This document shows positions 20,501-44,292 of a stretch of DNA of 64,000 bases, piece by piece; position 1 is the stretch's first letter, and every line of letters begins with the position of its first letter. The stretch is from an uncultured virus (IMG/VR IMGVR_UViG_3300044670_002562) (taxonomy: Duplodnaviria; Heunggongvirae; Uroviricota; Caudoviricetes), in IMG/VR virus record IMGVR_UViG_3300044670_002562, one strand, 5' to 3'. The position numbers and the translations under genes were made by a program. Under the pieces are notes generated by a model. The model ran no database searches, had not been told where the DNA came from, and saw only the letters and a program-made list of their open reading frames with translations.

Positions 20501-22704
20501 TATACCGCGATATCCTCAGAGAGTGATCCAAAAATATCTTCCGAGAACGTCGGATTATAGGACGTCTTTTCTCGGAGGAAGAGTACTAGGTCCCCGGTCT
20601 TCTTGAAGACGTTAGTGAGGGTGTCTTCCAGCTTTGTGAGGTCCTCCTTGCCGTAACGAGCCTCAAACTCGTCATTATGCCAGTAGAACAGGAACAGCAT
20701 ACGTCCGACTTTATCCATGCCTACTACCATATCTGATATATAGTCCTTACGGATCTCCGAGATATCGGCCTTGTCGATTAGTCCTTGGAGAATGCGGACG
20801 TCAAAAACCTCCTTAATCCCCTGCTCTGCGGCTTGCGTCGCTTGTTCGATAACTGCCCCGGGTAAGACGGGAGAATTATCGGACGCAGACGGCGTGGTGA
20901 GAGACTTGCCCTCTAGGGTGCTGACCTCTTCGGTTACTGCCTCTTCTTGGGAGGTAGAGGGTCCGCCCATCCACGGAGGCTCCGAATATCCGTAAGCCGC
21001 GGTATCGTAGGGCGCTGCGTGCTTAATGAGATATCCTTTATACGCATGAGGAGACGCTTCTGCCTCTTTCAGGATCTGTAGTGCCTGTCCTCCGCCTATA
21101 CCGTGTCGCCAGATGAGGTGCTTAGCTGCGGCCTCTTTTGAGATAAGCCCTGTGGACTGCTCCCCGAACAAGACCTGAGCGTTAAACTCTGTGCTGTGTA
21201 CGCGGAGATGGCGGAGATTGGCCTGCTTATGGATGACTTGGTGCAGCACCGTCGAGGAGTCCCCTAATGATACTTCTCGAGGGGTGTGTTGTTTAGGATA
21301 TGCGGGAGTGCGGCCGTCGAACAGCGTGCGGCGAGTAAATACTCGGGTTCCCTCGGGCACGAATAGATAGCCTGTCTCAAGGCGAAGTTGGGCCTCTGGT
21401 CCGACGAACTCTACCCGCACTACACTACGGTCAGTGCCGCCTTCGAACGACAAATGTCCGTCCGTATAGCCGGCACTGTTGCGGACCGTAACGGAGAAGG
21501 ACCCGTCTGGGTTGCCCTCTCTGTTGATGATGCGTGTAGCGATAGAGTTCTCTGGATTCTGAACAAATAAAACACCTGTGTCTCTGTTGAGTCCTGCCAA
21601 GAGCGTACGAGACGCCTTCTTTCCCCCTTGGATACCGGCCATCTCGTCTGCTGTCACGCTTGTGGCCGGCTTACAGTATACATCAGATGACCGCTTACTT
21701 GTATAGCTCTGCGGATTGTCGATATCCACTAGGCATACTTGGCGATTCTCCGACGAGCGGAATCGGCGCGATGTGATCGACGTATCTGAGATGTGTTTCG
21801 GGAGAAAGATAATAAAGGTTTTGAACGAGCCGTCTGAGAGCAGCACATCGTATAGACCGGGAGAGGTCGGATTCTGCAGGACAGAGCTATCTACCTCCTC
21901 CTGGAAGATCTTAGACAGGGTAGTTCTATTGTCCTTAACGTAGATGCCGTTACGTACCAGTAGTTCTTTTTCTCTATCTCCGAGATCCTTCGCCTCTTTA
22001 GAGGTCATATCGGATATAATGACGACATCATCCTTCGTGGGCTTATTGGGCGTAGCTGCTGAGAACGCTGCGGATTTGGCCATAGATGACACTTGACCTA
22101 CGTCGTAGAAAGAGAATAGAGAGTTACTGAATTCCGGACTGTTGAGAAACGTCTCCAGGAACGCACGAGACGCTGCTTTCCCTAGCTTGGGGATATCCGA
22201 CATAAGATCGATCGGGGAGAAGTTGGTTGCATTAAGTGCGGCGAGCTTTGTCTTCATCCGCAGCCACGTGCTCTCTGTAATAATAGCGTTATCGTCGAAC
22301 GCGGCCTCCTTACCCAGCGAACTGTACCCCTCGTCCAAGATCTGAGTATTTTCTGGGGACGCCTTCTCGATGTTCTCATCGCCGGCTAGCTCGGACTTTC
22401 CGATAGCCTTAGTTCCCTGTTCCTTGATAGACGAAATCCAGTTATCTAGTGCCGGAACAAAGATATCCTTCTGCTTAACGTAGATTAGGTCTAGTCCTTT
22501 AATGTTTCCTTTTAGAAAGAATACAGGGATATATAGCCATAGGTTATTCACAACAAAGGCTGCGACGCCTACTGCTTTCGTGTCATCCTCCGTCTTATCG
22601 ATGACTTGAAACCCTACTCGGTGCTCTACCAATGACGGCAGCTTCTCGCTGATCTGGGAATCGGCTAGCTGTCCAAATTTATGCTCAAAGCTGACGTCGG
22701 CCAT
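20500..22704 (-). CDS. Hypothetical head-module protein with multiple KxA motifs
   Basis: 734 aa ORF with RBS; KEAA, KLAA, KAAS, KSAA, KQAN, KHAA. Confidence 0.75.
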   Translation of the reverse strand: MADVSFEHKFGQLADSQISEKLPSLVEHRVGFQVIDKTEDDTKAVGVAAFVVNNLWLYIPVFFLKGNIKGLDLIYVKQKDIFVPALDNWISSIKEQGTKAIGKSELAGDENIEKASPENTQILDEGYSSLGKEAAFDDNAIITESTWLRMKTKLAALNATNFSPIDLMSDIPKLGKAASRAFLETFLNSPEFSNSLFSFYDVGQVSSMAKSAAFSAATPNKPTKDDVVIISDMTSKEAKDLGDREKELLVRNGIYVKDNRTTLSKIFQEEVDSSVLQNPTSPGLYDVLLSDGSFKTFIIFLPKHISDTSITSRRFRSSENRQVCLVDIDNPQSYTSKRSSDVYCKPATSVTADEMAGIQGGKKASRTLLAGLNRDTGVLFVQNPENSIATRIINREGNPDGSFSVTVRNSAGYTDGHLSFEGGTDRSVVRVEFVGPEAQLRLETGYLFVPEGTRVFTRRTLFDGRTPAYPKQHTPREVSLGDSSTVLHQVIHKQANLRHLRVHSTEFNAQVLFGEQSTGLISKEAAAKHLIWRHGIGGGQALQILKEAEASPHAYKGYLIKHAAPYDTAAYGYSEPPWMGGPSTSQEEAVTEEVSTLEGKSLTTPSASDNSPVLPGAVIEQATQAAEQGIKEVFDVRILQGLIDKADISEIRKDYISDMVVGMDKVGRMLFLFYWHNDEFEARYGKEDLTKLEDTLTNVFKKTGDLVLFLREKTSYNPTFSEDIFGSLSEDIAV

Positions 22705-22760: not shown

Positions 22761-25031
22761 TTACAACCTGACGGGGTCCAACACTTTAGGAACATACGAC
22801 GTTCCCTCGTGAGGGCTACTTGATCCTAACCGCGCAGACTCTAGGAATGACTTCTTAAGGCCGAATCCTGATAATCTTACTTTCCAGTCGGGATCGCTTC
22901 CAAGAACACCCATCGCTCTAACCACATGCGGTTCAAACCCCGGGCCTTCTTTATGAGTAACAATAGTCTCTACCCCACTATCTTCCAAATCTTTCGCAAT
23001 CTTTGAGGTTACTTGGGTACCAATCGAGTAATGTAGTACCGGCTTCTCGAGATACTTACCTACTGCGCGCTTGGGTTTGGCCTCTGCTGAATCTTCTCGC
23101 GGCTCGTACTCACTAGCGAGCTGCGTGTAGGGCACAATGTCTGAAATTGCGTATCCCATTACTCCCTCTGGGCGTGTAATCCGCACTTTATCGAAGAACG
23201 CTCGAGAGAGTACTTCAACATTACGTCTATGGGACGGCACACCGTTCTTTGTTAGGATCTCGTAGAATTTATCTTGGAAATATTTCCTCCCCTCTCCTAA
23301 TCCTTTCATCTCTGCAATCTGCGCAGGATTTGGGGTGCCGTCTGAGATCGAATCGCCAGCAGATACGTCGTTCCCTATACGTACGGTAAGTTTACGAGTA
23401 TCGGGCACATACACTACCTCGTTATTTATGTACACATATCTGCCACCTTGGGGAGCATCTGTGATGTTAGTGATTTTGCCGGCCTGGGGCGCTAGGACCG
23501 CGCCTCCCTTGAACGTCTTAGGTACCTGCACGAACTGGTTTACCTCATCGAATCCTGACACATTAGAGTCATTTACCCCGACTACTCCGCCTAAGTGTTT
23601 TGCGGAGAGAGCCAGCTGCTGTGTCATAGGCTCCGAGAGTACTCGGGCGGACTCTATGCCTATATACGCTCCCATTGGAGGGAATCTATTCTGGTCGCGC
23701 TTCCCTGAGCACATCTGACATACGCCTTCTGGCATCTGACAGGTGAGTAGGGAGCGGATCATGACTTTCTTGCCTCGGAGGGTCGCTAAATCTTTGCGAG
23801 AAACCGCTGTGTTGCGAGCTATGCCGCCTATATCCTTAGCCACGACTGATCCTAGTATTTCCGGATCATCTCCAGCAACCATAAGACCTACGTCAGATGC
23901 CCCGCAATCCTCACCAGTTACCCTTATATGCTGGGACATGGCGGCCAGCTGCTTCCCTAAGAATCCTGTCTTAGCTGTGGCGAACTGCACGTCTGAGTTA
24001 CTAACAATGAGTCCGTTAGCTAGAACAAACCTATGATCTGGGTGATCTACTTCTAAGTCGTATGTAGGCCTAAGGCCTATAGGCGTAATTTCTTCTCTCT
24101 TTTGCAGGAATCCCGGCACATCATTTGCCTGCTTATCTAAGATAATAGTCCTATCACTGACCCGCCCCCTCTCCGCGGAGGTAATAGGTACCATCTCCCC
24201 GTCAGCCTCCCCCAGTATCTTATGGTCTGGGGTGGCTTCGATGTATATTGCGCGCCCTTCTCCGAAGTAATATCGGTAGATTACGTGGACTCCGTTATAG
24301 TGTCGGGCGATTACCTCTACCGGGTATGTCTTCCCGTCCTTATCTGCGCCTAGTACAACATCGCCGGGAGCTATATCCTCTATGCGCTTTACAGACGTGT
24401 CGGCCATTCGTACGAGTGTGTTTGGAGCTAAGCAGTATCCTTTACGAGACGCGTATGAGCCTGCCCAGAACTCTGGGCCCGTTACGCCTTCCCCGTATCC
24501 GTGCAGACCTGGAATTGGCACTGGCTGGTCCTTGTGATCGGCCACTAGCATATCCCCAAACAATAGCTGCGTTAGCTGAGTCGGAGATCCGCGAAGCCCT
24601 TGTTTTACCATCTCTCCGTACGCATTAGGGCGTTCCTCTAGCTCTGCTAGTAACGTCTTCTGTATAGTAGGCATAGCCTTCTGCATAGTGCTCATTATCT
24701 TCTCGTCCTTTTGCTTGGACGTTAGAACACGACTTTGGGAGATGCTCCTGATCTTTTCCTGTAGCTGTTTTCTGTACGCCTTAGTCTTGGGAGGTAGGCG
24801 CAGGTCCGTTAGACGTAGTGAGGATGTTCCCCCGTACTCTGTTGCAACTATGCGAGAAATATCGGACAGCTTTTTCAGTACTGTCACGTACTCGTCAGGA
24901 TGCTTTTCGGCAAGCTCTTGGAAGAACGCTGATGATGTCTTCTTATTAAAGACGCGCTCGGGATCACGCATAGAGTCAGGAATTGCCTGATCTATCAGTA
25001 TCCTACCTAGAGTTGTCCGGTGTCGGGGCAT
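22761..25031 (-). CDS. RNA polymerase beta' subunit, C-terminal part (RpoC2-like), containing a mini-intein
   Basis: TTLGRILI start, bridge helix (FWAGSYASRKGY/SDVQFATAKTGFLGKQL), Zn site (DCG...RSLLTC...VCQMCSG), trigger loop (SEPMTQQLALSAKHLGG). Confidence 0.9.
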   Translation of the reverse strand: MPRHRTTLGRILIDQAIPDSMRDPERVFNKKTSSAFFQELAEKHPDEYVTVLKKLSDISRIVATEYGGTSSLRLTDLRLPPKTKAYRKQLQEKIRSISQSRVLTSKQKDEKIMSTMQKAMPTIQKTLLAELEERPNAYGEMVKQGLRGSPTQLTQLLFGDMLVADHKDQPVPIPGLHGYGEGVTGPEFWAGSYASRKGYCLAPNTLVRMADTSVKRIEDIAPGDVVLGADKDGKTYPVEVIARHYNGVHVIYRYYFGEGRAIYIEATPDHKILGEADGEMVPITSAERGRVSDRTIILDKQANDVPGFLQKREEITPIGLRPTYDLEVDHPDHRFVLANGLIVSNSDVQFATAKTGFLGKQLAAMSQHIRVTGEDCGASDVGLMVAGDDPEILGSVVAKDIGGIARNTAVSRKDLATLRGKKVMIRSLLTCQMPEGVCQMCSGKRDQNRFPPMGAYIGIESARVLSEPMTQQLALSAKHLGGVVGVNDSNVSGFDEVNQFVQVPKTFKGGAVLAPQAGKITNITDAPQGGRYVYINNEVVYVPDTRKLTVRIGNDVSAGDSISDGTPNPAQIAEMKGLGEGRKYFQDKFYEILTKNGVPSHRRNVEVLSRAFFDKVRITRPEGVMGYAISDIVPYTQLASEYEPREDSAEAKPKRAVGKYLEKPVLHYSIGTQVTSKIAKDLEDSGVETIVTHKEGPGFEPHVVRAMGVLGSDPDWKVRLSGFGLKKSFLESARLGSSSPHEGTSYVPKVLDPVRL
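23997..24434 (-). mobile_element. Mini-intein (146 aa, no endonuclease) in the beta' bridge helix
   Basis: C1 CLAPNT, block B ATPDHKI, block F PTYDLEV, C-terminal IVSN followed by +1 Ser; excision restores a continuous bridge helix. Confidence 0.9.
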
Positions 25032-25633
25032 TACTTTCTACTGGCGAGCCATGACCCTATAATAGGAACTGAGCTTATTCTTCTTGTCCAAGTGTCTGAC
25101 TCCTCGGAGCTTGACGCATTGTCGCGGAACCTGTTCGCGAGCTCTAGAAGCTTAGCTTTTTTTGTAGGATTTGCCTCTGCCTTAGCCGCTTGTTCAAATA
25201 ACTGCCCTCGGAGGCGCTGCGCCGCCAAAAGCCTAAGATTCCCTACTCTAGGCCGAGCTTCTCTGCGAGTTTCAGGAGTATCCGGTCCTTTTAGGACTGG
25301 GTGCAAGGACGATGCAAAATCTTTTTCCTCTTCAGAGATCTCCGATGAGGGGTTCGCCAGCACATAACTTTTATATTCACCTAGCGAATCAAAGTCTTGG
25401 CGACGCCCTTTCATTAGCTCTCCTGCTGCAAGCCCCGCGCCTGCTCCTAAGCCTCCTCCGATTAGATACTTGTTAAAAGTTCTGTCGGACTCTGGGACTA
25501 GCTTACGCGTCAGAGCTACCCCGATGACAGCGCCTATTGGCGTTGTTATAAGTGACGGATTAATTGGGTCCTTCATTTTTTTAGCGCTACTCCGCGTATT
25601 GCCCCAGAGCTCTGAGGACTTGGATGAGTGCAT
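25031..25633 (-). CDS. Glycine-zipper membrane protein
   Basis: IGAVIGVAL and IGGGLGAGAGLAAG helices; coupled to the beta'-C gene. Confidence 0.65.
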   Translation of the reverse strand: MHSSKSSELWGNTRSSAKKMKDPINPSLITTPIGAVIGVALTRKLVPESDRTFNKYLIGGGLGAGAGLAAGELMKGRRQDFDSLGEYKSYVLANPSSEISEEEKDFASSLHPVLKGPDTPETRREARPRVGNLRLLAAQRLRGQLFEQAAKAEANPTKKAKLLELANRFRDNASSSEESDTWTRRISSVPIIGSWLASRK

Positions 25634-26399
25634 TATCCTGGTCGGCGGCCTCTAGCTGCTGAGGCATACTTGCCGGAGACATGGGCATGCCTTGCTCTGG
25701 CAGGGGAGGCAGCTCCTCCGGCAGCGGCATAGCGCTCGGCATAGGCACGGTGCTGAGTGACTCGTCGGTCAAATTTGCTACACTAGGCGGGAGAGCAGCC
25801 TCGCCATCCGGCACAGTCTCTGGAACTGCTACCCCCATCGTGTTCGCCATCTGCACAAGCAGGGCCTCTAGCTCATCGATGCGAGATTCCAGCTCCTTAT
25901 TAGTAACTCGAGACGACTCGGTATCCTCGCTAGGCTTTGCTTGTTCGGCAGGGGCCTGGGCTGCAGCGGCTGCTTCGATAAGCATCTGGAGATCTTGGGC
26001 AGATAGGGTAACGGGCTGCATTTCCATTCCGGCCATTCCGGCGGCGGGAGGCATACCGGCCATGCTAGGATCCATAGGAGGCATACCGGCCATGCTAGGA
26101 TCCATAGGATCCATAGGAGGCATAGGAGGCATACCGGCCATGCTAGGATCCATAGGAGGCATAGGAGGCATACCGGCCATGCTAGGATCCATAGGAGGCA
26201 TAGGAGGCATACCGGCCATGCTAGGATCCATAGGAGGCATACCGGCCATGCTAGGATCCATAGGAGGCGCAGCAGCGCCTGCCAGAGCAGGATCTTGAGC
26301 AGGAGCAGTCGCTCCTAGTTGCCCCGGCGAAAGAGTAGGTGGAGTGTACGCTTCCTTGGTAAGGTTGAGTACTTTATTTAACAAGTCTTTATCAATCAT
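25587..26399 (-). CDS. Pro/Met-rich low-complexity protein with short coiled coil
   Basis: Leader ending TKEA; PPMDPSMAGM repeats; ELESRIDELEALL coil. Confidence 0.7.
   Translation of the reverse strand: MIDKDLLNKVLNLTKEAYTPPTLSPGQLGATAPAQDPALAGAAAPPMDPSMAGMPPMDPSMAGMPPMPPMDPSMAGMPPMPPMDPSMAGMPPMPPMDPMDPSMAGMPPMDPSMAGMPPAAGMAGMEMQPVTLSAQDLQMLIEAAAAAQAPAEQAKPSEDTESSRVTNKELESRIDELEALLVQMANTMGVAVPETVPDGEAALPPSVANLTDESLSTVPMPSAMPLPEELPPLPEQGMPMSPASMPQQLEAADQDNALIQVLRALGQYAE
26047..26268. repeat. Coding tandem repeat, six nucleotide-identical copies of CCGGCCATGCTAGGATCCATA (DPSMAGM) with 9-nt PPM sub-repeats
   Basis: Directly visible in-frame 30/39/48-nt units. Confidence 0.9.
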
Positions 26400-26431
26400 C
26401 TTTACTGAGCCTCCTAAGGCATACGATATGG

Positions 26432-26989
26432 TTAAACGGGCTGATGTCGAGTGTTCAAGTACCCTGCAAAAAATCCTCTAGTTTTCGAATCTTGCTGATA
26501 AGAGGCGCACTTCCACTTTCTGCGGGCTTTGCATATTCTTTTATCCGGAGTTCTGGAGCAATCTATGCTATGCATCTTTCTTTGGCCATCCGAGCGGGCG
26601 CAAAAACTTTTACGCCTCTTAGAGGCTTTACCTCCTTTCTTAACTTTACCACTAACGGGGGCCTTTAAATTACTTCCAGGGTTCTGTCTTTCATAAGACT
26701 TTCTACCTTTCTCGTTAAGGCCTCCTTCGCTATTCTGACCTTCTCGCCTAGTCCAAGCCGCGTTTTTTTTCTTTTTAGCTGCCTCTTTACATAGATTTAG
26801 AATACGTATTCTAAAATCTGTGCGATCCGAAGCTTCTTTTGCCACAGATGTTGCGTATTCTTTTAGTTTTGCCTCTGACATACTGTCTGCTATCTCCTTT
26901 ACTTTTTTGGAAGCGTCGGGATTGTTTCCCCGTTTATACGCCAGCGCAGCTCCGAATAGGCGCTGCTGTGCTGTAGAGGCGGCTGGCAC
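26432..26989 (-). CDS. Basic two-module protein (DUF3008-like plus DUF6321-like modules)
   Basis: MPAASTAQQRLFG...LKEYAT module, then AAWTRREG..GGLNEKGRKSY..RRKSFCAR..RRKWKC module, separated by two KEA motifs; family names recalled, not searched. Confidence 0.65.
   Translation of the reverse strand: MPAASTAQQRLFGAALAYKRGNNPDASKKVKEIADSMSEAKLKEYATSVAKEASDRTDFRIRILNLCKEAAKKKKNAAWTRREGQNSEGGLNEKGRKSYERQNPGSNLKAPVSGKVKKGGKASKRRKSFCARSDGQRKMHSIDCSRTPDKRICKARRKWKCASYQQDSKTRGFFAGYLNTRHQPV
26796..26815. promoter_or_regulatory. Perfect 20-bp palindrome TTTAGAATACGTATTCTAAA (recurrent motif, intragenic copy)
   Basis: Exact symmetry; contains the 16-bp core. Confidence 0.5.
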
Positions 26990-28221
26990 TACTCTTCCCT
27001 CTTCTTGCGGCCGAACATCTCCGGGGATATGCGGAGCTTAGTTCCGGGATCGTATCCAGGAAAGTCTTCTCGGCGTCTTTTTAGGTTGACTGCGTCTGCC
27101 ATAGATTGGACGAATGTATTAGAGTTTATCCCTTTTCCGATAATATTCTTCCATACAGGCGGATAGAAGTGAGGATTCTCTCGCTCATTGTATCGGTACG
27201 CCTCGCCCGCATTAAGGATTTTTGATATAATCTCATCCGTACTCTTGCCTTGGTTTATAGAACGGCTAATATGAGTTTCCCAGAACTTATCCTGCCTAGG
27301 GCTGCCTTGGGTGCTGACGTATTCCCTGAACGCTTTGACGTCATTACCGTAGTTCCGGTGGTATCTAAGCCGACGTTTGCTAAAGAACCCCGGCTTCACA
27401 TTATATGCTCCGACAAGTACTGCCGGCGTGTCCCCGAACTTAGTGACCGCGTCTCCGAACTTCTCCGGGTCTTTGGGAACTAGTACAAAGAACTGGTGCC
27501 TGCCTATGGGCGATTTTCCAATCCCAGTATCTACAGCAACCCTGCGAGATCCTAGGTAGATGCCGGGCGGGAGGGTCTCCTTTGCTATAAGCTCTGTTCC
27601 GGTAGACTTAGCTGCCTTAAAGAGCTTCTTAGGCAGGCGGAGATCTCCGCCTATATCTCCTTTTGGGAAATCTCGACGACGTTTGTCGATACCGGCTACG
27701 TCCGCCATAGTCTGCGCGAACGTATTAGAGTTGGGGTGCATACCTAGAAGATTCGGAACCAGGGCAGGGTAGTACACTGGTCGCTTCGCCGTATTCTTAG
27801 CGTAGTTCCTCCCTGCCTGCAGCACTCTCTGGATAGTCTCATCTATGTCCCTCTTAGGGACGATCGGACGACTTAGTACAGGGTTCCAGAATCGATCAAC
27901 GTCTTTCTTTGAGTGGGTCGCTGTATATTCGCGTATTGCCGATAGGTCGTCTCGCTCGTTTCTGCGGTAACCTAGGCTTGGTCTAGACAGTATTTTTTCT
28001 GACGGGACCCTGTATCCTCCTACCACTATTCCGCGATTACCGTTCCCTAGATCGGCATCCAATCCCTTAAACTTTTCAGGATCTTTAGGGACCAGTACAA
28101 AGAACTGATGTCTGAAGTAGTTTGGGTTTACTTTGCTGCGGGGATCGGCCACTCTGCGGGTCCCTAGGTATATTCCAGGACTGAGTGTTCCACTCTCTAT
28201 AAGCTCTTCGTGCTTCTTCAT
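26989..28221 (-). CDS. Protein of two tandem ~200-aa domains, papain-like fold tentative
   Basis: Both halves carry PGIYLG.RRVA, RHQFFVLVPKDPEKF and NSNTF.Q.MAD. Confidence 0.7.
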   Translation of the reverse strand: MKKHEELIESGTLSPGIYLGTRRVADPRSKVNPNYFRHQFFVLVPKDPEKFKGLDADLGNGNRGIVVGGYRVPSEKILSRPSLGYRRNERDDLSAIREYTATHSKKDVDRFWNPVLSRPIVPKRDIDETIQRVLQAGRNYAKNTAKRPVYYPALVPNLLGMHPNSNTFAQTMADVAGIDKRRRDFPKGDIGGDLRLPKKLFKAAKSTGTELIAKETLPPGIYLGSRRVAVDTGIGKSPIGRHQFFVLVPKDPEKFGDAVTKFGDTPAVLVGAYNVKPGFFSKRRLRYHRNYGNDVKAFREYVSTQGSPRQDKFWETHISRSINQGKSTDEIISKILNAGEAYRYNERENPHFYPPVWKNIIGKGINSNTFVQSMADAVNLKRRREDFPGYDPGTKLRISPEMFGRKKREE

Positions 28222-28227
28222 AGGTAC

Positions 28228-31200
28228 CTAATTAAGTATCGTAATGGGGTCGTCTATTGATATCTTGCCTGCCCTGTATGCTCGCTTAGCCTCATCCACT
28301 GTATTGAATACTGCTGGGGCTTTATCGGACGGAGCCTTAGTGGCTAGGTACAGTCCCTGCAGATATTCGTTGGATAGCTTGTATGAGGCTTGTCCTGATC
28401 TTGCGGACAGGAGGTTGCGGTCAGGCATCATGCGATCGATTACCTGTGATACTGCTTCATCCGATACAGGTACGGTAAACGAGGCGGTGTCTCCATCGTA
28501 GTCCATAGCGAATGGCCCTACTATTGCAGGAGGCACCTGCACAGTAGAGCCCTTCACCAACACCGGCCAGAATCCCATAACGCTATACTTATGTAAGGTA
28601 GGCGCTCGATTTAGGATGACAGGGCGGCGCGTAATAACGGTCTGGAGCGCCTTATAGGCTAAGGGGCTTTGATCTTTTACGGCTGTGGCGGCTTCTGTGG
28701 CTGAAACTCCCTGTCTTACCAAGTCTCGTATAATAAAAGGCTCGTACAGGTTCCAGGCTAGCTTTTCTGGGATTCCCGCCTGATTAAGCAAAAGCGACGG
28801 GTTTGGCGCAACAACTCCAAGACCTGCCATATCAATATTGGTTCCTAGTACTCTACGCTGAATGAACCCTGTCTTAGGGCTCCCTTTGCCGAAGATATGC
28901 GGCAGAATACCTTTTACATTCTTCTGGACGAGCTGGTCCTTCTTAGGGTCCGATGTCCCGATAAGCGCTTTATAGCTGTCCCACAGCTCTGTACGGGCCT
29001 CCTGTCGCATTTGCGCAGGTAGTCCGTCTGTCTCCTTATAGTCAGCTATAGCCTCTATTAGCGATTTATACAGGTAGTTAGGATCCGCGACCATAGTCAT
29101 TCCGCCTTGGGCCGCTATTGGACGAAATCGAGGAGGAAGTACAGGTACCCTAGTCATAAGGAAATCTGCGGGGGTTACCTTGTTCGTTTCGAAAGCGTGC
29201 AGGAACCGGAACTTCTTTATTGCGTCATCTCGCTTGGACCGGATACCGTGCTTAATCTCATGCAGCGCTTTAGCTTTCTCTGCCTTAACATCGACCTTCG
29301 ATAGTCTGCCGGCTAGTGCTTCTTCGCCCTCAGCGATTAGCTCCTCCATTTCCGTCCTCTTCAGTCCAAGTATTCGCCGCATAGGGTCGGTCATAATAGG
29401 ATTAGGTAGGGGAGTAGGTAGCTCGATATATGCCCACCTGTCTCCGTTAGCCGCACTGCCTGTAGCGTCTGGGTCAAACAGTCCGCCTGGAATAGGTTTC
29501 ATGCCCTTTGCCGTATAGGTGGCTCCCTTATATATCTGTCGATTACCTGTCAGGTCTTTTGCCTGTTGATCTGTCATGGAGAATATATCGTCTGAGAAAG
29601 CGCCTTCAGATAGATGGACTCCGCCTGCTCGGATCAGGTCCTTAAACTTTTCGTACACTAAGGGAGTCTTTGGCATAGTCGGAGTTTGTCCGAGCTTAAG
29701 CTGTCGCCAGAACATGTCATTCTTCTGTCCCTTGATAAGCTTCATATCTTTAAGGACTTCTGTAGCTCCGTGAGCAAGTAGGGCCTCTTGGTACATCTTC
29801 CCTAGATGCTTCGCGCCTGTCTTACCTCCCTTTGCGGGCTGGTCCTCGGCGGTATACTTGGCCTGGGATCGCGATTTGCCCTTACCCTCAGAGGTGTGTT
29901 GCATCTTGTAGAAGTAGGTCACTCCCGTAAAGATCTGGGGGATCTTCTTGTTCGTCCTGGGGTCTACTAGGTCTTCTCTATCTGAGAGTCTGTGCTTCTG
30001 GAGCTCCTTATGCGTAAACTCGATCATATCCTCGTCGGAGAATCCGGGAAGGATATACGGCTTACCTGTCTTCTCCGCGATCTTACCTAGCTGTGCCTCT
30101 AGCTTCTGTGCCGGATTCGTTCTGCTTACCACGCCTAGCGGAGATAGGATAACGTCCATCTTCCTGCCCCTAGGGTCCGTAGGCATCTCGGAATCCTTCA
30201 CTACCTTCGAGATAACGCCTTTGCCCCCGTGACGCATAGCTAGCTTGTCGCCTACGCCCATTGGGATATTTGTGCGGATGTTAATGTAGTATCGCTCTTT
30301 CCCCTCAGTAGCGTCTGTGACTACTCCGGGGTGCTTCTTCTCCCACACTACCGCCTTATTAGATCGGATACGTCTTCCGAGGCTCCCTCCCTCTTTGGGA
30401 TCCTGCTCGGAGACAGCCAGCGCTAACGGATCCCCGTATCGGACAATAGATCCCGGCTTAATCATACCGGTAGCCTCATCTATCTTCGCCAACTGGTCCT
30501 TATTGAAAGCGGCGGGGAAGTTGGCTCGGAACATCTCCTTAGATACCTTGAGATCCTTCTGCTTCGTAAACTTAGTGTGGTACATGTGCTCGGATGTAAG
30601 TTTCTTGGCTGCTGCCTCCGATATGACAATAGCGTCCTCAAATACTAGCCCGTCGTAGTTCCAGTAGGCTACTCGTAGATTAGTGCCGAGTGCCGCTACT
30701 CCTTTATCGCTGGTGAAGTTGCTAGCGGCTAGGAGGTCCCCTTTCTTTACTCTATCTCCGGCTTTAACTGAGGACTTATTCCGGATATACGTAGATCTGG
30801 CGTACGGGAAGTTCTCGTACAGGTCGACAGAGCCCTCTGTACCGTCCGCATAGACTAGGTCTATGCGGTTCTTCCGCACAGCCTTTACCGTTGCATCTCC
30901 CGATGCTCTCACTGCGCCCAGGTGCCCGGCAATGCGCCTCTCTGTACTGGTTCCGCTGCTAGGGTCAGACGTCTGTACCAGCGGAGCCTCTCTACTCACT
31001 AGCGGAAGTGCTTGAGGTCCGAATTTCGAGTTATGTACGAAGACCCCCGCGTCTACGGCAAAGACCTTGTCCCCTAAATCAAGATCATACGTCACATCAG
31101 ACTCCGGAACCTCCACTACAGATGCGACTCTGTCCCACATCACGTTACTACCTATCCACGGACAGTCATCGACCGTAAGCCTTTCTGCTAGGGTGTCCCT

Positions 31201-33936
31201 AGTGTGCTGATCCACATAGGACCTATGTCTAAACTGCTCTTTCCTGCTGGAGCAGCTCAAAATTTTCTTGTGAAGTTCCGAGTATTTAGGTACCCAGTAT
31301 ATGTCTTTCTTGCCGGACCATGTAGGATGTTTCGACAGACGTTCATCCTTACGCGGATGACCTATATCCGGGAGACGGCTAATGTGCTGAGGCCGGATCT
31401 CTACCTTGTAAAAAGGAGCTCCCTTCACCGCGGATGATGTCTTGGTAGAGTCTATTCCTATAGTTCCGAGCAAAGTCATGAAGTCTCTTGCCAGATAGGG
31501 GCTCCTAGTTCCCGCATACACTCTGGCGTACCCTCTGCGAAGACCTACGCCTCCGTCGCCCGCAAGATATCCTGACACTAGTCCCTCTCTGAACTTTCTT
31601 CCTGCGTTCATTAGTGTGCCTGAGATCTTCTTGCTATAGGACCCTGAAGAGCAGTGCGTATAGAACAAAGAGGCAAGCTCTCTGCTATTGACGACATTAT
31701 CGTATCCGTCTGGGTATCTTCGGTTCCCTTTTAGTCGGTAGCGAATTCCCTTCTTCTCGCACCACGCGCGCAGCCTGTCCTGGACAAAGGTCTCTATTCC
31801 GGCGATGCTGATGCGGGAGCACGGCTCTCCTTTGCTGTTTATCTTTGTCAGAGTCCCTTCTGCTACGTACAAACCAAATATCCATCCGTCTTCACGGTCT
31901 GTGAGATCTATCTTAAGATCTCCTAGCTGGATGGACGTGTCCTGGGCATCCCCAAATAGATGGGACATATCCCCTGTGCGTGGTATAGGGGTATTTTTAC
32001 GTAGATCCCGTGCCAAGATCTCTTCTAGCTTACCGTCCGGCCCCATCGTTACCCACTTGTGGTTATCTGTGGTGATTACCCGGCGTCCGGACTTCAGAGT
32101 AATCATCAGCATAGTTTGCTGAGGCTGTGTATTCTCTTTTATGCCAGCTATAGGAGACCACTCTGTCCCTAGTGTATCTTCGTTGACACTTATGGTCTCG
32201 TCCCCTTCTTTCCATGTGTACTCTCCTACACATGTCTTATATACGTCGCCGTCTCGACGGATCATTAGATCTGTGTTCTCGTGTAGACAGCCCATCAAGA
32301 GGCGCATGCCCTTGTCTCCGGACTTGAGCGGAACCAGGTTTGCGCCATCTGAGAACATGTCGTCATTACTGGGAACGATGTAGTCCACGTCTTCTTTCTT
32401 TACCCACGCCATCCCTCGGTTAGGTACCATGGCAATCACGTAAGGCTCTGTGCTCTTTCGAGCTTCCGGCCATGCTAGGTTCTTACGCGCAGCCTCTCTA
32501 ATCCCTACCCACTTCTCTTTGCCAGTCTTAGCGTCGATAAACTTAGAGTACAGTTGCCGGTCCGGGCCTCGTCGAACATTGCGAGACATCTTCATATCTA
32601 CGCCGATCTTGAGGGATTCTGGCGCTCGGACGGGGTCGATATAATTGAGGTACGTAGGCTGGACTCCGCGAGCCTCTTTGGGGACTACATCCACGCTGGA
32701 CATGGCTCCCTCACCTAGTCGAAGTATGCGTTGATTCTGGTCGTACATATCCAACGGATTGATTTCTTCGATAGTTTGTGCCATGCCCGAGCTGTTAAAG
32801 AGGTGCTGGACGTGCTTATCCAGCGGCGCTGTGGGGACAGCCGATACGTCTCCGTTCTTTTTGGTGAGCTTCCACAGGATCTGCCGCAGAATGCCGTTCT
32901 GATCGTGTGTTACCTTATCGCTGAGGAAGTCTGAGATGTCCCACACATCCTGGAACTCCAAAGAATCACGACTATCTGAGTCTTCCTTTCCTTGTGCAAC
33001 GCGCAAGATCTTACCTGTTGCGGACATCATCGCTTCCGGGGATACGTTCGAATGGGCCTCACCTATCGTAACTTGTGTAACTCTAGGATTAAGCCCGATC
33101 TTACCGAACTCCTCCTCTAATCCCTGTCGAACTGTGTCCGTGTACAGGTTAGAGATCGCCGCTCCTGTCTTCTGCTGGAGTAGCTGCGCAACAACGGATC
33201 CCGCCTTAGCGTCTACAGATAGCGGTGCGTTAGCTTCGAGCGGCTCAGGCGCTGTGGCGAACCCCTTCAGGAAATTAACAGCATACGGAGATTTCTCTAA
33301 GTCTTTGTTCTTCTCCGCAATACCTTTTCCCCACTGGGCTTCGATATCCTCGTGCTGCTTTCCCATAGCTCTGAGGATAGGATATAATGGGAGCTTCCTA
33401 TTCTTATACTTCATGTAGAAGTGCGATGTGGCTGGCTCCATATAGATACGGAAGGATGCTCCTGACCGAGGCATAGCGTTAAACTGGGCCTCTACGTTTG
33501 CGTCATCTGTTACTCGCGTATAGATGCCCGAGTTAAGCCGTAACTGCTTTGCTATTGTATACTCAGATCCGTTACGTACGTATGTCCCTCTATCCGTTAG
33601 GTAGGGTACGTTCATGAGTGTCTTACGGCCAGTCTTGCCTATAGCCTTGCCCGACTCTTTATCTACTACCTCCCACCGGCCCGTTACCTTATCGCTAAGC
33701 GTCCTACCTTCCAGTATCGCCGACTTTTGCTGGGCGAGAGAGAATCGGTTCTTCGGCTTGGCATAGGCAACATCTACGGCTCTTAGGAGATACGTATCGT
33801 TCTCCGAAAAAGCAGACGTCGCAACAGCAGAGAGGACCTTCTTTCGTAGGTCCTCTCTGACTGCGTTGTAGTCTGTGTAGTTTAGCAGCCCCTTGCCGTC
33901 TGAGAAGTCTGGGGCTGGGGCGGGCATCTCCGGCAT
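28228..33936 (-). CDS. Fused RNA polymerase beta + beta' N-terminal part, intein-containing
   Basis: beta motifs (PYLTDRGTYVRNG, IDPVRAPES, FEDAIVISE, GDKLAMRHGGKGVIS, KMQH, GAKHLGKM) run in frame into beta' motifs (GGLFD, VPVLPPRFRP, NRAPTLHK, FAMDYDGD). Confidence 0.95.
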   Translation of the reverse strand: MPEMPAPAPDFSDGKGLLNYTDYNAVREDLRKKVLSAVATSAFSENDTYLLRAVDVAYAKPKNRFSLAQQKSAILEGRTLSDKVTGRWEVVDKESGKAIGKTGRKTLMNVPYLTDRGTYVRNGSEYTIAKQLRLNSGIYTRVTDDANVEAQFNAMPRSGASFRIYMEPATSHFYMKYKNRKLPLYPILRAMGKQHEDIEAQWGKGIAEKNKDLEKSPYAVNFLKGFATAPEPLEANAPLSVDAKAGSVVAQLLQQKTGAAISNLYTDTVRQGLEEEFGKIGLNPRVTQVTIGEAHSNVSPEAMMSATGKILRVAQGKEDSDSRDSLEFQDVWDISDFLSDKVTHDQNGILRQILWKLTKKNGDVSAVPTAPLDKHVQHLFNSSGMAQTIEEINPLDMYDQNQRILRLGEGAMSSVDVVPKEARGVQPTYLNYIDPVRAPESLKIGVDMKMSRNVRRGPDRQLYSKFIDAKTGKEKWVGIREAARKNLAWPEARKSTEPYVIAMVPNRGMAWVKKEDVDYIVPSNDDMFSDGANLVPLKSGDKGMRLLMGCLHENTDLMIRRDGDVYKTCVGEYTWKEGDETISVNEDTLGTEWSPIAGIKENTQPQQTMLMITLKSGRRVITTDNHKWVTMGPDGKLEEILARDLRKNTPIPRTGDMSHLFGDAQDTSIQLGDLKIDLTDREDGWIFGLYVAEGTLTKINSKGEPCSRISIAGIETFVQDRLRAWCEKKGIRYRLKGNRRYPDGYDNVVNSRELASLFYTHCSSGSYSKKISGTLMNAGRKFREGLVSGYLAGDGGVGLRRGYARVYAGTRSPYLARDFMTLLGTIGIDSTKTSSAVKGAPFYKVEIRPQHISRLPDIGHPRKDERLSKHPTWSGKKDIYWVPKYSELHKKILSCSSRKEQFRHRSYVDQHTRDTLAERLTVDDCPWIGSNVMWDRVASVVEVPESDVTYDLDLGDKVFAVDAGVFVHNSKFGPQALPLVSREAPLVQTSDPSSGTSTERRIAGHLGAVRASGDATVKAVRKNRIDLVYADGTEGSVDLYENFPYARSTYIRNKSSVKAGDRVKKGDLLAASNFTSDKGVAALGTNLRVAYWNYDGLVFEDAIVISEAAAKKLTSEHMYHTKFTKQKDLKVSKEMFRANFPAAFNKDQLAKIDEATGMIKPGSIVRYGDPLALAVSEQDPKEGGSLGRRIRSNKAVVWEKKHPGVVTDATEGKERYYINIRTNIPMGVGDKLAMRHGGKGVISKVVKDSEMPTDPRGRKMDVILSPLGVVSRTNPAQKLEAQLGKIAEKTGKPYILPGFSDEDMIEFTHKELQKHRLSDREDLVDPRTNKKIPQIFTGVTYFYKMQHTSEGKGKSRSQAKYTAEDQPAKGGKTGAKHLGKMYQEALLAHGATEVLKDMKLIKGQKNDMFWRQLKLGQTPTMPKTPLVYEKFKDLIRAGGVHLSEGAFSDDIFSMTDQQAKDLTGNRQIYKGATYTAKGMKPIPGGLFDPDATGSAANGDRWAYIELPTPLPNPIMTDPMRRILGLKRTEMEELIAEGEEALAGRLSKVDVKAEKAKALHEIKHGIRSKRDDAIKKFRFLHAFETNKVTPADFLMTRVPVLPPRFRPIAAQGGMTMVADPNYLYKSLIEAIADYKETDGLPAQMRQEARTELWDSYKALIGTSDPKKDQLVQKNVKGILPHIFGKGSPKTGFIQRRVLGTNIDMAGLGVVAPNPSLLLNQAGIPEKLAWNLYEPFIIRDLVRQGVSATEAATAVKDQSPLAYKALQTVITRRPVILNRAPTLHKYSVMGFWPVLVKGSTVQVPPAIVGPFAMDYDGDTASFTVPVSDEAVSQVIDRMMPDRNLLSARSGQASYKLSNEYLQGLYLATKAPSDKAPAVFNTVDEAKRAYRAGKISIDDPITILN
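31030..32289 (-). mobile_element. Intein with LAGLIDADG homing endonuclease (420 aa) in RNAP beta
   Basis: C1 CLHENT, block B TTDNHKW, LAGLIDADG motifs FGLYVAEG and VSGYLAGDG, terminal FVHN followed by +1 Ser; excision gives RLLMG-SKFGPQALPL, equivalent to RpoB RALMGxNMQRQAVP. Confidence 0.95.
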
Positions 33937-43661: not shown

Positions 43662-43727
43662 GTATTTAATCTCCCTATTGAATCGCCCCGATAGTGTACT
43701 CGCGCAGGAGATATGCCGCAAGTAGAT

Positions 43728-43771
43728 AAAAACAGAGAGGCCGTTCCCTTTCTAGATAAAGGAACGGCCTC
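43728..43771 (-). terminator. Intrinsic terminator
   Basis: Stem GAGGCCGTTCC/GGAACGGCCTC followed on the minus strand by a T-rich tail. Confidence 0.7.
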
Positions 43772-43843
43772 GGTATTCCTACATTTGCTAACAGGAATAA
43801 TTAGCAGATTCGCTACGCAGGCTCCGCTAAGGTCTCGATAGAG

Positions 43844-44291: not shown

Positions 44292-44292
44292 T

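What the first reader, a model, noticed from the sequence alone, without database searches (positions are those of the whole stretch)
22761..33936. Cellular-type multisubunit RNAP with beta-beta'N fusion and separate beta'C, embedded in the head morphogenesis module
Seen: one ORF runs from beta motifs straight into beta' (junction near 29600) through the catalytic loop; the rest of beta' (starting at TTLGR) is a separate gene 3.2 kb downstream, after four intervening genes. The split lies very close to the cyanobacterial/plastid rpoC1/rpoC2 boundary. No alpha or sigma gene is recognisable in the window. Known: phiKZ-like phages package a virion RNAP, and a metagenomic lineage of tailed phages with deeply branching multisubunit RNAP (mReC) has been described. 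Inference: location between portal and protease suggests a virion-packaged, minimal two-polypeptide RNAP.
Basis: partly seen in the sequence, partly recalled or inferred. Interest (0 to 1): 0.8.

Follow-up and report, generated by a model that had tools for sequence, protein, structure and literature searches.

The report
Two-chain phage RNA polymerase with inteins
An uncultured large tailed phage encodes its own bacterial-type RNA polymerase as two oddly cut proteins (all of beta joined to the front of beta-prime, the rest of beta-prime separate), each interrupted by a self-splicing intein; the layout is real and is the norm in a large, barely studied phage family whose one proteomically examined member carries the enzyme in its particles.

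Summary
Window 28228-33936(-) is one 1902-aa ORF. It holds RNAP beta, then beta' from about E. coli residue 18 to about 552, including the catalytic MDYDGD loop, with no linker at the junction (nt 29595/29596). Window 22761-25031(-) holds the rest of beta' (756 aa). Four poorly conserved genes lie between the two.

Each RNAP gene carries an intein: a 420-aa LAGLIDADG intein in beta and a 146-aa mini-intein in the bridge helix.

The layout is not unique:
- All 120 best metagenomic homologues are fused.
- 244 IMG/VR loci encode relatives.
- Four cultured phages share it: Salmonella phage Arash and Vibrio phages D69, D148 and D181.
- Earlier findings of this scan reported the same family on other DNA.

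In a tree the family sits apart from 22 bacteria of 12 phyla, so recent capture is refuted.

It is not in the published mReC tables, whose phages have separate, adjacent beta and beta' genes.

No alpha was found. A gp10-like sigma occurs in 7 of 7 complete relatives, just outside this window.

Virion packaging rests on Arash proteomics and on the portal-to-capsid gene position, so it is an inference.

Verdict: a new member of a known but biochemically unstudied kind.

The parts
28228..33936 (-). Fused gene for RNAP beta plus the N-terminal part of beta' (P0001, 1902 aa; 1482 aa after intein removal)
   Evidence: Pfam Rpb2_6, Rpb1_1 and Rpb1_2 in one ORF. Best PDB matches are all bacterial beta and beta'. 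96% identical to the intein-free P0003.
29596..33936 (-). Beta portion (P0001 residues 1-1447, intein included). The N-terminal lobes are shortened, the flap-tip helix is not conserved and the rifampicin-pocket residues are diverged.
   Evidence: BLASTP and MAFFT against Salmonella RpoB. K1065, K1073 and H1237 are kept. Positions 516, 526, 531 and 572 read E, Q, L and D (the residue roles are recalled).
31030..32289 (-). Intein 1: 420 aa, Cys1 ... His-Asn | Ser+1, with a TxxH block and two LAGLIDADG motifs. It is inserted in beta between G and S of '..RLLMG|SKFGPQALP..', which aligns with E. coli 'RALMG|ANMQRQAVP'.
   Evidence: Pfam Intein_splicing and LAGLIDADG_3. Exactly absent from P0003 (96% id) and P0004 (90% id). 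Motifs checked.
28231..29595 (-). Beta' N-terminal portion (P0001 residues 1448-1902, about E. coli beta' 18-552). It has the clamp helices and the catalytic MDYDGD (nt 28489-28506). The zinc ribbon is deleted.
   Evidence: Alignment blocks. Coordinates verified. A1 invariant D1392, D1394, G1395 and D1396.
22761..25031 (-). Beta' C-terminal gene (P0002, 756 aa; 610 aa after intein removal). It has the bridge helix and the trigger loop with its conserved His. The C-terminus is shortened.
   Evidence: Pfam Rpb1_5 and Rpb1_4. PDB beta' matches. Alignment. Found downstream on the same strand in 68 of 80 related loci.
23997..24434 (-). Intein 2: 146-aa mini-intein, Cys1 ... Ser-Asn | Ser+1, inserted in the bridge helix ('ASRKGY|SDVQFATAKTG').
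   Evidence: Pfam Hint and Hom_end_hint. Boundaries. Also present in the closest relative G001/L003.
25031..28221 (-). Four intervening genes (410, 185, 270 and 200 aa). They are lineage-specific and not RNAP core parts.
   Evidence: Homologues found in only 1, 7, 1 and 1 of 80 related loci. Only DUF3750 (weak) and DUF3008+DUF6321 domains. The 270-aa protein has Met/Pro-rich decapeptide repeats.
20500..22704 (-). Conserved 734-aa gene directly after beta'C, of unknown function. It is a possible virion or RNAP-associated partner.
   Evidence: Present after beta'C in 56 of 80 loci. Weak match to Arash gp218 (E 7e-5), a virion protein with 1149 spectra. No fold match.
39647..41515 (-). Portal protein gene, 5.7 kb upstream of the fused gene on the same strand
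   Evidence: tblastn to Arash portal gp204 (E 8e-53) and its D69 counterpart (E 3e-59).
13436..14410 (-). Major capsid protein gene (HK97 fold), downstream on the same strand
   Evidence: phrog_2522 (E 1e-5). NF042927 (E 3e-7, below cut-off). D69 homologue (E 1e-24).

Best explanation
These two genes encode the only RNA polymerase of a roughly 165-kb tailed phage of the 'Arash type'.

Shown:
- The core enzyme is made as two chains: beta fused head-to-tail to beta' residues about 18-552, and beta' from about 572 to the end.
- No split intein joins the two chains.
- Both chains are under strong purifying selection and keep the catalytic residues.
- Each chain first has to splice out an intein that sits in an essential element (the fork-loop region of beta, the bridge helix of beta').

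Inferred, fairly likely:
- The core needs no alpha or omega homologue.
- It uses a phage sigma of the Arash-gp10 type, docked on the beta' clamp helices. This sigma is encoded outside this window.

Inferred, moderately likely:
- The genes sit in the late head-gene block. The enzyme, with its sigma, is loaded into the capsid and delivered with the DNA to start early transcription without the host polymerase.
- It is probably insensitive to rifampicin.
- Because there is only one RNAP set per genome, newly made enzyme probably also serves later transcription.
For: Architecture and catalytic residues.

No split intein: P0001 aligns to beta' up to its last residues. P0002 begins 5 residues before the conserved TTxGR motif.

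Selection against the closest relative: pN 0.06-0.11 against saturated pS 0.71-0.79 for both RNAP genes, like the portal.

Family:
- The best 120 of 1541 hits (8000 candidates scored) all carry both beta and beta' domains.
- 244 of 251 IMG/VR stretches encode relatives.
- Beta'C lies downstream on the same strand, 986-6690 nt away and never adjacent, in 68 of 80 loci.
- The portal is upstream on the same strand in all 25 of 80 loci where it was detected.

One RNAP set and no alpha (PF01000) in 3 of 3 complete genomes: G001, Arash and D69.

Sigma:
- A 238-aa G001 protein has Sigma70_r3 (26.3 bits) and r4 (25.6 bits), both over the cut-off.
- It is homologous to Arash gp10 (E 5e-18).
- Homologues occur in 5 of 5 further near-complete genomes.

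Modelled beta'N with sigma (collected):
- Score 0.66, best of 3 controls 0.00. This mark was reached by 116 of 157 solved complexes and 2 of 215 mismatched pairs. The counts hold only roughly, because my own alignments were used.
- The runs agree in at least 39% of contacts. The partner's pLDDT is at least 72.
- The interface at residues 1186-1234 overlaps the stretch that aligns to the clamp helices.
- Sigma-clamp-helix complexes are solved, so the pass may only reflect likeness.

Packaging, from Arash virion mass spectrometry:
- Gp206 had 128 unique peptides and 3516 spectra, the most of all proteins.
- Gp216 had 40 peptides and 1210 spectra. Sigma Gp10 had 24 and 467. The portal had 32 and 877 (passages read).

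Rifampicin pocket: positions 516, 526, 531 and 572 read E, Q, L and D.
Against: - Nothing here measures packaging for this phage.
- The Arash preparation yielded 116 proteins, including ribonucleotide reductases, a ligase and a primase. Its authors themselves allow carry-over of abundant infection proteins.
- Arash is only about 29% identical.
- In this window seven extra genes separate the portal from the RNAP gene.
- The portal was detected in only 25 of 80 loci.
- Beta'C was missing from 12 of 80 loci. Three of those had a full 10 kb of downstream sequence.
- The flap-tip helix, which docks sigma region 4 in bacteria (recalled), is not conserved.
- Sigma region 2 is below Pfam's cut-off in the G001 and Arash sigmas.
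- The sigma gene was not seen for this contig itself, because it lies outside the window.
- Absence of alpha was tested with one Pfam model only.
- No prohead protease was found, so the 'module' is only partly annotated.
Confidence: 0.6

Rival explanations
1. The enzyme is a non-virion polymerase. It is made in the infected cell for middle or late transcription and is not packaged. Its detection in Arash particles would be carry-over of an abundant protein.
For: The Arash particle preparation held 116 proteins, including replication enzymes. Its authors name carry-over as a possibility. There is only one RNAP set per genome in 3 of 3 complete genomes, so the same enzyme must in any case act inside the cell if late genes are not read by the host enzyme.
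Against: Gp206 is the most-detected protein of all. By my own division of the published spectra by length, Gp206 (about 2.3 spectra per residue) and Gp216 (about 2.0) exceed the portal (about 1.5). The genes sit on the same strand within the portal-to-capsid block in the family. A polymerase made only with late genes is of little use unless it is carried over to the next cell; this last point is inference.
Confidence: 0.27
2. The genes are a recent capture of a host rpoB-rpoC operon that was then rearranged.
For: The best solved-structure matches are all bacterial beta and beta', so the enzyme is of the bacterial type.
Against: Identity to every bacterium examined is only 28-33%, in the best 80 of 593 confirmed matches from 12 or more phyla. 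That scan was cut at 600 rows. In the tree, 18 fused-type phage rows and 22 bacteria form two sides of a branch with SH-aLRT 100 on both, about 2.9 changes per column apart.
Confidence: 0.02
3. It is a member of the published mReC lineage (Weinheimer and Aylward 2020).
For: Both are tailed phages from metagenomes with bacterial-like beta and beta' that branch away from cellular clades. The two lineages occur in the same metagenomes, for example 3300017987.
Against: Metagenome numbers 3300017987 and 3300017991 occur there only with other contigs. mReC rows list separate, mostly adjacent beta of about 1000-1400 aa and beta' of about 900-1370 aa, and some contigs have two sets. Cobetia phage Carin-5 has that kind of layout (sigma, beta' 1083 aa, beta 927 aa). 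In the tree it did not join the fused family but sat alone on a branch of 3.8. I could not obtain a verified mReC sequence, so a deeper common origin is not excluded.
Confidence: 0.1
4. The genes are decaying: the inteins, the deletions and the split mark an inactive relic.
For: The zinc ribbon is lost, the flap tip and beta' C-terminus are shortened, and two inteins lie in essential elements.
Against: The reading frames are intact. Catalytic Asp triad, beta Lys 1065 and 1073, His 1237 and the trigger-loop His are kept. pN is far below pS. Both inteins keep Cys1, the TxxH block, a terminal Asn and a Ser+1 nucleophile. The same deletions are shared by all five phage rows aligned, including virion-detected Arash.
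Confidence: 0.02

Closest known systems
Salmonella phage Arash gp206 (1525 aa) + gp216 (606 aa), with sigma gp10 (OQ632216.1; PMC10585845)
   Same: The same beta-beta'N fusion and separate beta'C downstream of the portal. The same clade in the tree. One RNAP set and no alpha. A gp10-type sigma is shared with this phage's closest relative.
   Different: About 29-30% identity. Arash has no inteins, only one small gene between portal and RNAP, and nine genes (some on the other strand) before beta'C, including a helicase gp217 that has no match here. The paper annotates the genes as beta and beta'. The passages I read do not remark on the fusion or the split.
Vibrio phages D69, D148, D181 (OZ195729.1 and relatives)
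   Same: The same architecture and order: portal-like gene, small gene, fused gene, beta'C. They are sister to Arash in the tree. Together with Arash these are the only 4 of 50,697 phage records that cover at least 80% of the fused protein.
   Different: About 29-31% identity. Their genes are annotated 'hypothetical protein'. D148 and D181 carry a homing endonuclease within the region.
mReC phages (Weinheimer and Aylward 2020, PMC7481178)
   Same: Uncultured tailed phages with bacterial-like beta and beta' that branch apart from cellular clades (abstract and sections 6-7 read).
   Different: They have separate, mostly adjacent beta and beta' genes of other lengths, sometimes two sets per contig. 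This family's contigs are not listed. The main text does not contain 'split', 'intein', 'sigma' or 'virion', and uses 'fused/fusion' only for crAssphage.
phiKZ / AR9-type jumbo-phage multisubunit RNAPs (virion and non-virion)
   Same: They are phage-encoded, lack alpha and omega, and have beta' split after the catalytic double-psi barrel domain. One set is packaged in the virion (PMC7824862 passages; PMC13282480 passages).
   Different: Those phages have two sets. Their beta is split into two or three chains rather than fused to beta'. They have no recognisable sigma-70 factor (a gp68 or gp226 subunit takes its place). They are far more diverged from bacterial enzymes. They did not appear among the best 60 PDB matches.
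Cyanobacterial and plastid rpoC1/rpoC2 (gamma and beta') split
   Same: Beta' is cut into two genes a little after the catalytic domain. The gamma chain matches P0001 up to gamma residue 551 of 624.
   Different: The phage cut lies in the variable loop before the TTxGR motif. That is about 20 aligned residues, plus the loop, upstream of the cyanobacterial cut, by projection. Beta is not fused in cyanobacteria (recalled).
Natural rpoB-rpoC fusions of Helicobacter and Wolbachia (recalled, not tested here)
   Same: Beta is joined head-to-tail to beta', showing that such a fusion is compatible with function.
   Different: Those are full-length cellular enzymes with alpha and omega. They have no downstream split, no zinc-ribbon loss and no phage context.
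Virion RNAPs of N4 (single-subunit) and crAss-like phage phi14:2 (fused two-barrel)
   Same: In function they are a polymerase carried in the particle for early transcription (PMC7824862 passage; the phi14:2 abstract was seen in the listing).
   Different: They are unrelated or extremely diverged folds. The mReC paper reports that the crAssphage RNAP gave no recognisable homology to its cellular beta and beta' HMMs. They are not sigma-70 dependent.

Membership tests
Arash-type fused phage RNAP (beta-beta'N + beta'C) | Beta and the N-terminal part of beta' in one reading frame without a linker | tested here: met
   Single ORF. The junction is at P0001 residues 1447/1448. The same junction is seen in Arash, D69, L019 and L040.
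Arash-type fused phage RNAP (beta-beta'N + beta'C) | Separate beta'C gene downstream on the same strand, starting at the TTxGR motif | tested here: met
   P0002 lies 3.2 kb downstream. The same holds in 68 of 80 family loci.
Arash-type fused phage RNAP (beta-beta'N + beta'C) | Groups with Arash and D69 to the exclusion of bacteria | tested here: met
   18 fused-type rows form one side of a branch with SH-aLRT 100. Quick search, 41 rows x 2015 columns, no outgroup, with long-branch and composition warnings.
Arash-type fused phage RNAP (beta-beta'N + beta'C) | Presence of the chains in virions | not testable with these tools
   Known only for Arash.
Bacterial-type multisubunit RNAP core | Catalytic residues: DxDGD triad in beta', two Lys and a His in beta, bridge helix, trigger-loop His | tested here: met
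   MDYDGD, K1065, K1073, H1237 and H936 equivalents are present. The residue roles are recalled.
Bacterial-type multisubunit RNAP core | Alpha dimer and omega as assembly subunits | tested here: not met
   PF01000 was absent from 3 of 3 complete relatives while it was found in 14 of 14 control genomes. Omega was not searched. The beta' C-terminal region is shortened.
Bacterial-type multisubunit RNAP core | Beta' N-terminal zinc ribbon (Cys70, 72, 85, 88; recalled) | tested here: not met
   31-33 residues including all four Cys are deleted in all 5 phage rows.
Sigma-70-dependent holoenzyme | A sigma-70-family factor encoded by the phage | tested here: inconclusive
   None in the window. One is present in G001 (r3 and r4 over the cut-off) and in 7 of 7 related genomes. 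Its position in G001 falls about 5 kb outside the window's equivalent.
Sigma-70-dependent holoenzyme | Sigma region 2 docks on the beta' clamp helices | tested here: inconclusive
   The model supports binding: score 0.66, best of 3 controls 0.00. The mark was reached by 116 of 157 solved and 2 of 215 mismatched pairs. The runs agree in at least 39% of contacts and the partner's pLDDT is at least 72. Like complexes are solved, so the pass may be from memory. It is not a measurement.
mReC lineage | Listed among, or grouping with, the 97 mReC contigs | tested here: inconclusive
   None of 14 identifiers tried matched one of this family's contigs. No verified mReC sequence could be fetched for a tree.
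mReC lineage | Separate beta and beta' genes, as tabulated in the paper's Supplementary Dataset | tested here: not met
   mReC rows have beta of about 1000-1400 aa and beta' of about 900-1370 aa on neighbouring gene numbers. Here there is a fusion of 1482 aa plus a chain of 610 aa, after intein removal.
phiKZ-like virion RNAP | Two paralogous RNAP sets, with beta split into several chains | tested here: not met
   One beta and one beta' catalytic match per genome in 3 of 3 complete relatives. Beta is whole and fused.
Class-1 inteins (Hint fold) | Cys/Ser at position 1, TxxH block, C-terminal Asn, nucleophile at +1, and exact absence from close homologues | tested here: met
   Both inteins meet the motif features. 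Intein 1 is absent from homologues of 96% and 90% identity. Intein 2 lacks the penultimate His (it has Ser-Asn) and was not seen absent from a close relative, because G001 carries it too. Splicing itself was not tested.

The most novel reading that the evidence does not exclude
The two chains plus a co-packaged gp10-type sigma form a complete, alpha- and omega-free bacterial-type holoenzyme. It rides in the capsid and is injected. That would make it the first sigma-70-dependent virion RNA polymerase. These phages would then be independent of the host enzyme from the first minute. The family would be a lineage of bacterial-type RNAP that lies outside all sampled bacterial phyla and is distinct from both the phiKZ and mReC types.
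Probability: 0.35. Interest if true: 0.75.

Novelty: new member of a known kind. Interest (0 to 1): 0.5.

Why it matters
This family offers a naturally streamlined bacterial-type RNA polymerase: about 2,090 residues in two chains against about 2,750 for E. coli beta plus beta'. It has no alpha, no zinc ribbon and a diverged flap tip, yet it apparently still uses a sigma factor. That makes several things directly testable:
- which parts of the bacterial enzyme are really needed for assembly and for sigma-dependent initiation;
- how a large multisubunit enzyme is loaded into and ejected from a capsid.

The family is large: 244 IMG/VR loci and over a hundred fused metagenomic proteins. It has cultured members (Arash, Vibrio phages), so experiments are possible.

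In five literature searches and the passages read, I found no paper that describes the fusion-plus-split layout, its sigma or its intein load.

The family is also an intein hot spot. Large insertions occur in 39 of 80 fused genes and 18 of 68 beta'C genes at recurrent sites, including the catalytic loop. This is of interest for intein biology and tools.

For this particular window the result is confirmation and annotation, not a first sighting. This scan has reported the same family on other DNA.

Tried and rejected
- No whole genome is held for the window, and there were no earlier notes at this place.
- The conserved 734-aa gene after beta'C gave nothing. The protein atlas had no usable hit. 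The AlphaFold2 model from 38 sequences reached mean pLDDT 67.6 and pTM 0.35. Foldseek against the PDB gave no match at E <= 0.001. BFVD gave only one uncharacterised Caudovirales protein (1.2e-15).
- Fetching a verified mReC polymerase failed three ways. Carin-5 beta' as a query in IMG/VR found no relative. None of the 6 metagenome numbers from those stretches that I checked is in the mReC table.
- A PDB search with the first 120 residues of beta'C matched only actinobacterial beta', no cyanobacterial chain. The comparison with rpoC1/rpoC2 therefore rests on projection.
- A prohead protease was sought with Pfam, PHROGs and NCBIfam and not found. ORF 12087-12677, which PHROGs calls crotonase-like, is a Peptidase_C92/YiiX-type amidase by Pfam and NCBIfam.
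- The four intervening genes were considered as extra RNAP subunits and rejected, because they are conserved in only 1, 7, 1 and 1 of 80 loci.
- A split intein joining the two chains was considered and rejected. There are no intein halves at the break.
- Rows left out of the tree: phage loci L012 (beta'C ORF of 1208 aa) and L026 (intein); 29 of the 50 complete bacterial rpoB-rpoC pairs (21 were picked by hand for phylum spread, plus Salmonella); Acinetobacter; and Rhizobium phage RHph_Y65, in which no beta was detected.


Full report
**What is there.**

All genes in this part of the window run on the minus strand.

The ORF at 28228-33936 (P0001, 1902 aa) has these Pfam matches:
- RNA_pol_Rpb2_6 at residues 1050-1370 (E 1.3e-43);
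- Rpb1_1 at 1579-1684;
- Rpb1_2 at 1698-1833 (E 8.5e-18);
- an intein splicing domain with a LAGLIDADG endonuclease.

The ORF at 22761-25031 (P0002, 756 aa) matches Rpb1_5, weakly Rpb1_4, and a Hint module.

Against all PDB chains, the 60 best matches shown for each protein are bacterial beta or beta'.

Between the two genes lie four ORFs of 410, 185, 270 and 200 aa.

No sigma-70 or alpha domain was found in the 62 window ORFs scanned.

**Anatomy.**

I aligned the intein-free versions with Salmonella RpoB and RpoC. This gives E. coli numbering, once 38 mis-annotated N-terminal residues of the RpoB record are removed. The alignment included three other bacteria and four family members.

Junction:
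- The beta part reaches the very C-terminus of beta.
- It continues directly with beta' from about residue 18, at P0001 1447/1448 = nt 29595/29596.

Features shared by all five phage rows:
- The beta' zinc ribbon is deleted (31-33 residues, all four Cys).
- The segment aligned to the beta flap tip is shortened and not conserved.
- The beta lobes and the beta' C-terminus are shorter.

Residues kept:
- the catalytic MDYDGD (residues 1811-1816);
- beta Lys1065, Lys1073 and His1237;
- the bridge helix;
- the trigger-loop His.

The roles of these numbered residues are recalled, not tested here.

The rifampicin-pocket positions 516, 526, 531 and 572 read E, Q, L and D. I therefore predict insensitivity to rifampicin. 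This is inference.

The break:
- P0001 ends at about beta' 552 and P0002 starts at about 572. The variable loop between them is gone.
- No intein halves sit at the break, so these are two separate polypeptides.
- By projection from the PDB tables, the cyanobacterial gamma/beta' break lies about 20 aligned residues, plus the loop, further on. The two breaks are close but not the same.
- A search with the first 120 residues of P0002 found no cyanobacterial chain that would sharpen this.

**Inteins.**

Intein 1:
- It spans P0001 residues 550-969 (nt 31030-32289).
- It has Cys1, a TxxH block, two LAGLIDADG motifs, a terminal His-Asn and Ser+1.
- It splits the conserved 'RLLMG|SKFGPQALP' element of beta.
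- It is exactly absent from homologues that are 96% (P0003) and 90% (P0004) identical. It has therefore moved recently.

Intein 2:
- It spans P0002 residues 200-345 (nt 23997-24434).
- It is a 146-aa mini-intein in the bridge helix.
- The closest relative also carries it.

Across the 80 related IMG/VR loci:
- 39 of 80 fused genes and 18 of 68 beta'C genes carry insertions of 110 aa or more.
- The sites recur, and include the catalytic loop, the bridge helix and the trigger loop.
- I did not verify each insertion as an intein. Many homologues do carry intein Pfam domains.

**How common.**

- A search with residues 975-1902 found 1541 proteins at E <= 1e-10 among 8000 scored. All 120 listed carry both a beta and a beta' domain. 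Intein-free ones are mostly 1450-1490 aa. Contigs reach up to 216 kb.
- IMG/VR holds 244 confirmed loci.
- In the best 80, beta'C lies downstream on the same strand in 68, at 986-6690 nt and never adjacent.
- Of the 12 loci without beta'C, nine have less than 10 kb of downstream sequence and three have the full 10 kb.
- Where my BLAST detected a portal (25 of 80), it is upstream on the same strand.
- The four intervening genes of this window recur in only 1, 7, 1 and 1 loci, so they are not core parts.
- A 734-aa gene follows beta'C in 56 of 80 loci. Its function stayed unknown.
- Among 50,697 deposited phage records, only Arash and Vibrio phages D69, D148 and D181 cover at least 80% of the fused protein.
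- Earlier findings of this scan describe the same family on other DNA. I reached Arash independently before reading them.

**Origin.**

- A scan of one genome per prokaryotic species was cut at 600 rows. Its best 80 bacterial beta' matches are all 28-33% identical and come from at least 12 phyla.
- I built a maximum-likelihood tree (41 rows, 2015 columns, LG+C20 PMSF, quick search, SH-aLRT only).
- It puts the 18 fused-type phage rows on one side and the 22 bacteria on the other, both at 100, about 2.9 changes per column apart.
- Arash and D69 form the basal pair. This window sits with G001 and L019.
- Caveats: there is no archaeal outgroup, so the root is open. The tool warned of long branches meeting and of odd composition in 11 rows.
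- Recent capture from a sampled bacterial group is refuted. 'Deep-branching' and 'fast-evolving' cannot be told apart here.

**Relation to mReC.**

- The paper's text says nothing of a split, inteins, sigma or virions, and mentions fusion only for crAssphage.
- Its Supplementary Dataset lists separate beta (about 1000-1400 aa) and beta' (about 900-1370 aa) genes on mostly neighbouring gene numbers. Some contigs hold two such sets.
Numbers 3300017987 and 3300017991 occur there only with other contigs.
- Cobetia phage Carin-5 has that other layout (sigma, beta', beta). It sat alone on a very long branch.
- I could not fetch a verified mReC sequence. Membership is unsupported, but a deeper link is not excluded.

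**Partners.**

The closest relative, G001, is a complete 164,893-bp genome with terminal repeats. It is collinear with the window over its positions 77,942 to about 141,600.

G001, Arash and D69 each have one beta and one beta' catalytic match and no alpha (PF01000). The same models found their targets in all 14 control genomes.

The sigma:
- G001 encodes a 238-aa protein with Sigma70 regions 3 and 4 over Pfam's cut-offs, at 72,133-72,849. That is about 5 kb outside the window's equivalent.
- It is homologous to Arash gp10 (E 5e-18).
- It has homologues in 5 of 5 further near-complete family genomes.
- A second, weak sigma-like ORF of 164 aa lies near 160 kb in G001.

- Score 0.66, with the best of 3 controls at 0.00.
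- This mark was reached by 116 of 157 solved complexes and 2 of 215 mismatched pairs. The counts hold only roughly, because my own alignments were used.
- The runs agree in at least 39% of contacts, and the partner's pLDDT is at least 72.
- The contacts at residues 1186-1234 overlap the stretch aligned to the clamp helices.
- Sigma bound to clamp helices is a solved, textbook interface. The pass shows likeness, not proof of binding.

**Packaging.**

In Arash, virion mass spectrometry gave:

| Protein | Unique peptides | Spectra |
|---|---|---|
| Gp206 (fused chain) | 128 | 3516 (most of all proteins) |
| Gp216 (beta'C) | 40 | 1210 |
| Gp217 (helicase) | 38 | 1148 |
| Gp218 | 36 | 1149 |
| Gp10 (sigma) | 24 | 467 |
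| Portal | 32 | 877 |
| Capsid protein | 30 | 1333 |

- Divided by protein length, which is my own rough arithmetic, the polymerase chains exceed the portal.
- Against this, 116 proteins were detected, including replication enzymes, and the authors allow carry-over.
- For this window, packaging is thus an inference from a 29%-identical relative plus gene position: portal at 39647-41515, capsid gene at 13436-14410, all on one strand.

**Function is maintained.**

Against G001, pN is 0.06-0.11 while pS is saturated at 0.71-0.79, for both RNAP genes, the 734-aa gene and the portal.

**Literature.**

- Five searches found no description of this fused-and-split phage polymerase.
- Neither did the passages read in the Arash paper, the mReC paper, the 2021 jumbo-phage comparison, a 2025 metagenomic paper and a 2026 jumbo-phage review.
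- bioRxiv supplements and subscription journals were not searchable.

**Verdict.**

- It is a new member of a real, widespread, biochemically unstudied family.

Noticed in passing
window 7790, 15603, 26798, 35112, 44276, 56327, 61700, 63275 (16-nt sites): A palindromic motif TAGCATACGTATGCTA (consensus about TTTAGCATACGTATGCTAAAT) occurs 8 times at up to 3 mismatches, against 0.34 expected by chance. Most sites are at or near gene boundaries on the coding strand, but at least two (26798, 63275) lie inside called ORFs. The flanks are not conserved. The complete relative G001 has 13 sites at up to 2 mismatches and 0 for the reversed control. One sits just upstream of the weak sigma-like ORF. It is a candidate promoter, operator or hairpin of the phage's own transcription system.
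   Followed up: partly
window 42594-61516 (-): There is a long sugar-biosynthesis and glycosyltransferase block next to the portal. It holds a cytidylyltransferase, a dehydroquinate-synthase-like enzyme, two short-chain dehydrogenases, an RmlD-like reductase, a SIS domain, a methyltransferase and several glycosyltransferases, one with a short DXD-region match to the TcdA/TcdB family. The target (virion, DNA or host surface) is unknown.
   Followed up: no
window 20500-22704 (-): A 734-aa protein of unknown fold follows beta'C in 56 of 80 family loci. It weakly matches Arash gp218. In the Arash virion spectra, gp218 (1149), helicase gp217 (1148) and beta'C gp216 (1210) have nearly equal counts. 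That hints at a co-packaged set.
   Followed up: partly
window 25587-26399 (-): The 270-aa intervening protein holds about ten Met/Pro-rich decapeptide repeats (PMDPSMAGMP). They are encoded by a 30-nt tandem repeat at 26047-26295.
   Followed up: no
window 26989-28221 (-): The 410-aa gene directly after the fused RNAP gene contains an internal duplication. DNA repeats lie 612 nt apart (families D8 and D14). There are two overlapping tblastn matches in the relative. It has a weak DUF3750 match.
   Followed up: no
window 37947-39650 (-): The 567-aa gene next to the portal carries a long GCA/GCT-rich low-complexity repeat at 38076-38505. It is poorly conserved in the closest relative: 32% identity over 219 aa, against 90% for the portal.
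   Followed up: no
window 12087-12677 (-): A Peptidase_C92 / YiiX-type permuted papain-like amidase (Pfam E 9.5e-18) lies just downstream of the capsid gene. PHROGs labels the same ORF crotonase-like. It overlaps the 377-aa ORF 11177-12310, so one of the two calls may be wrong.
   Followed up: no
L012 15940-19563 (IMG/VR relative): In one relative the beta'C reading frame is 1208 aa, twice the usual length. Homology to beta'C covers only the first 1.8 kb. This may be an extra domain or an unrecognised insertion.
   Followed up: no
PMC7481178 Supplementary Dataset (file 5): Several mReC contigs list two different beta/beta' pairs on one contig, for example a pair of 1362 and 1009 aa and a pair of 1019 and 899 aa on a 308-kb contig. 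In the passages and sections I read, the main text does not discuss two polymerase sets.
   Followed up: no
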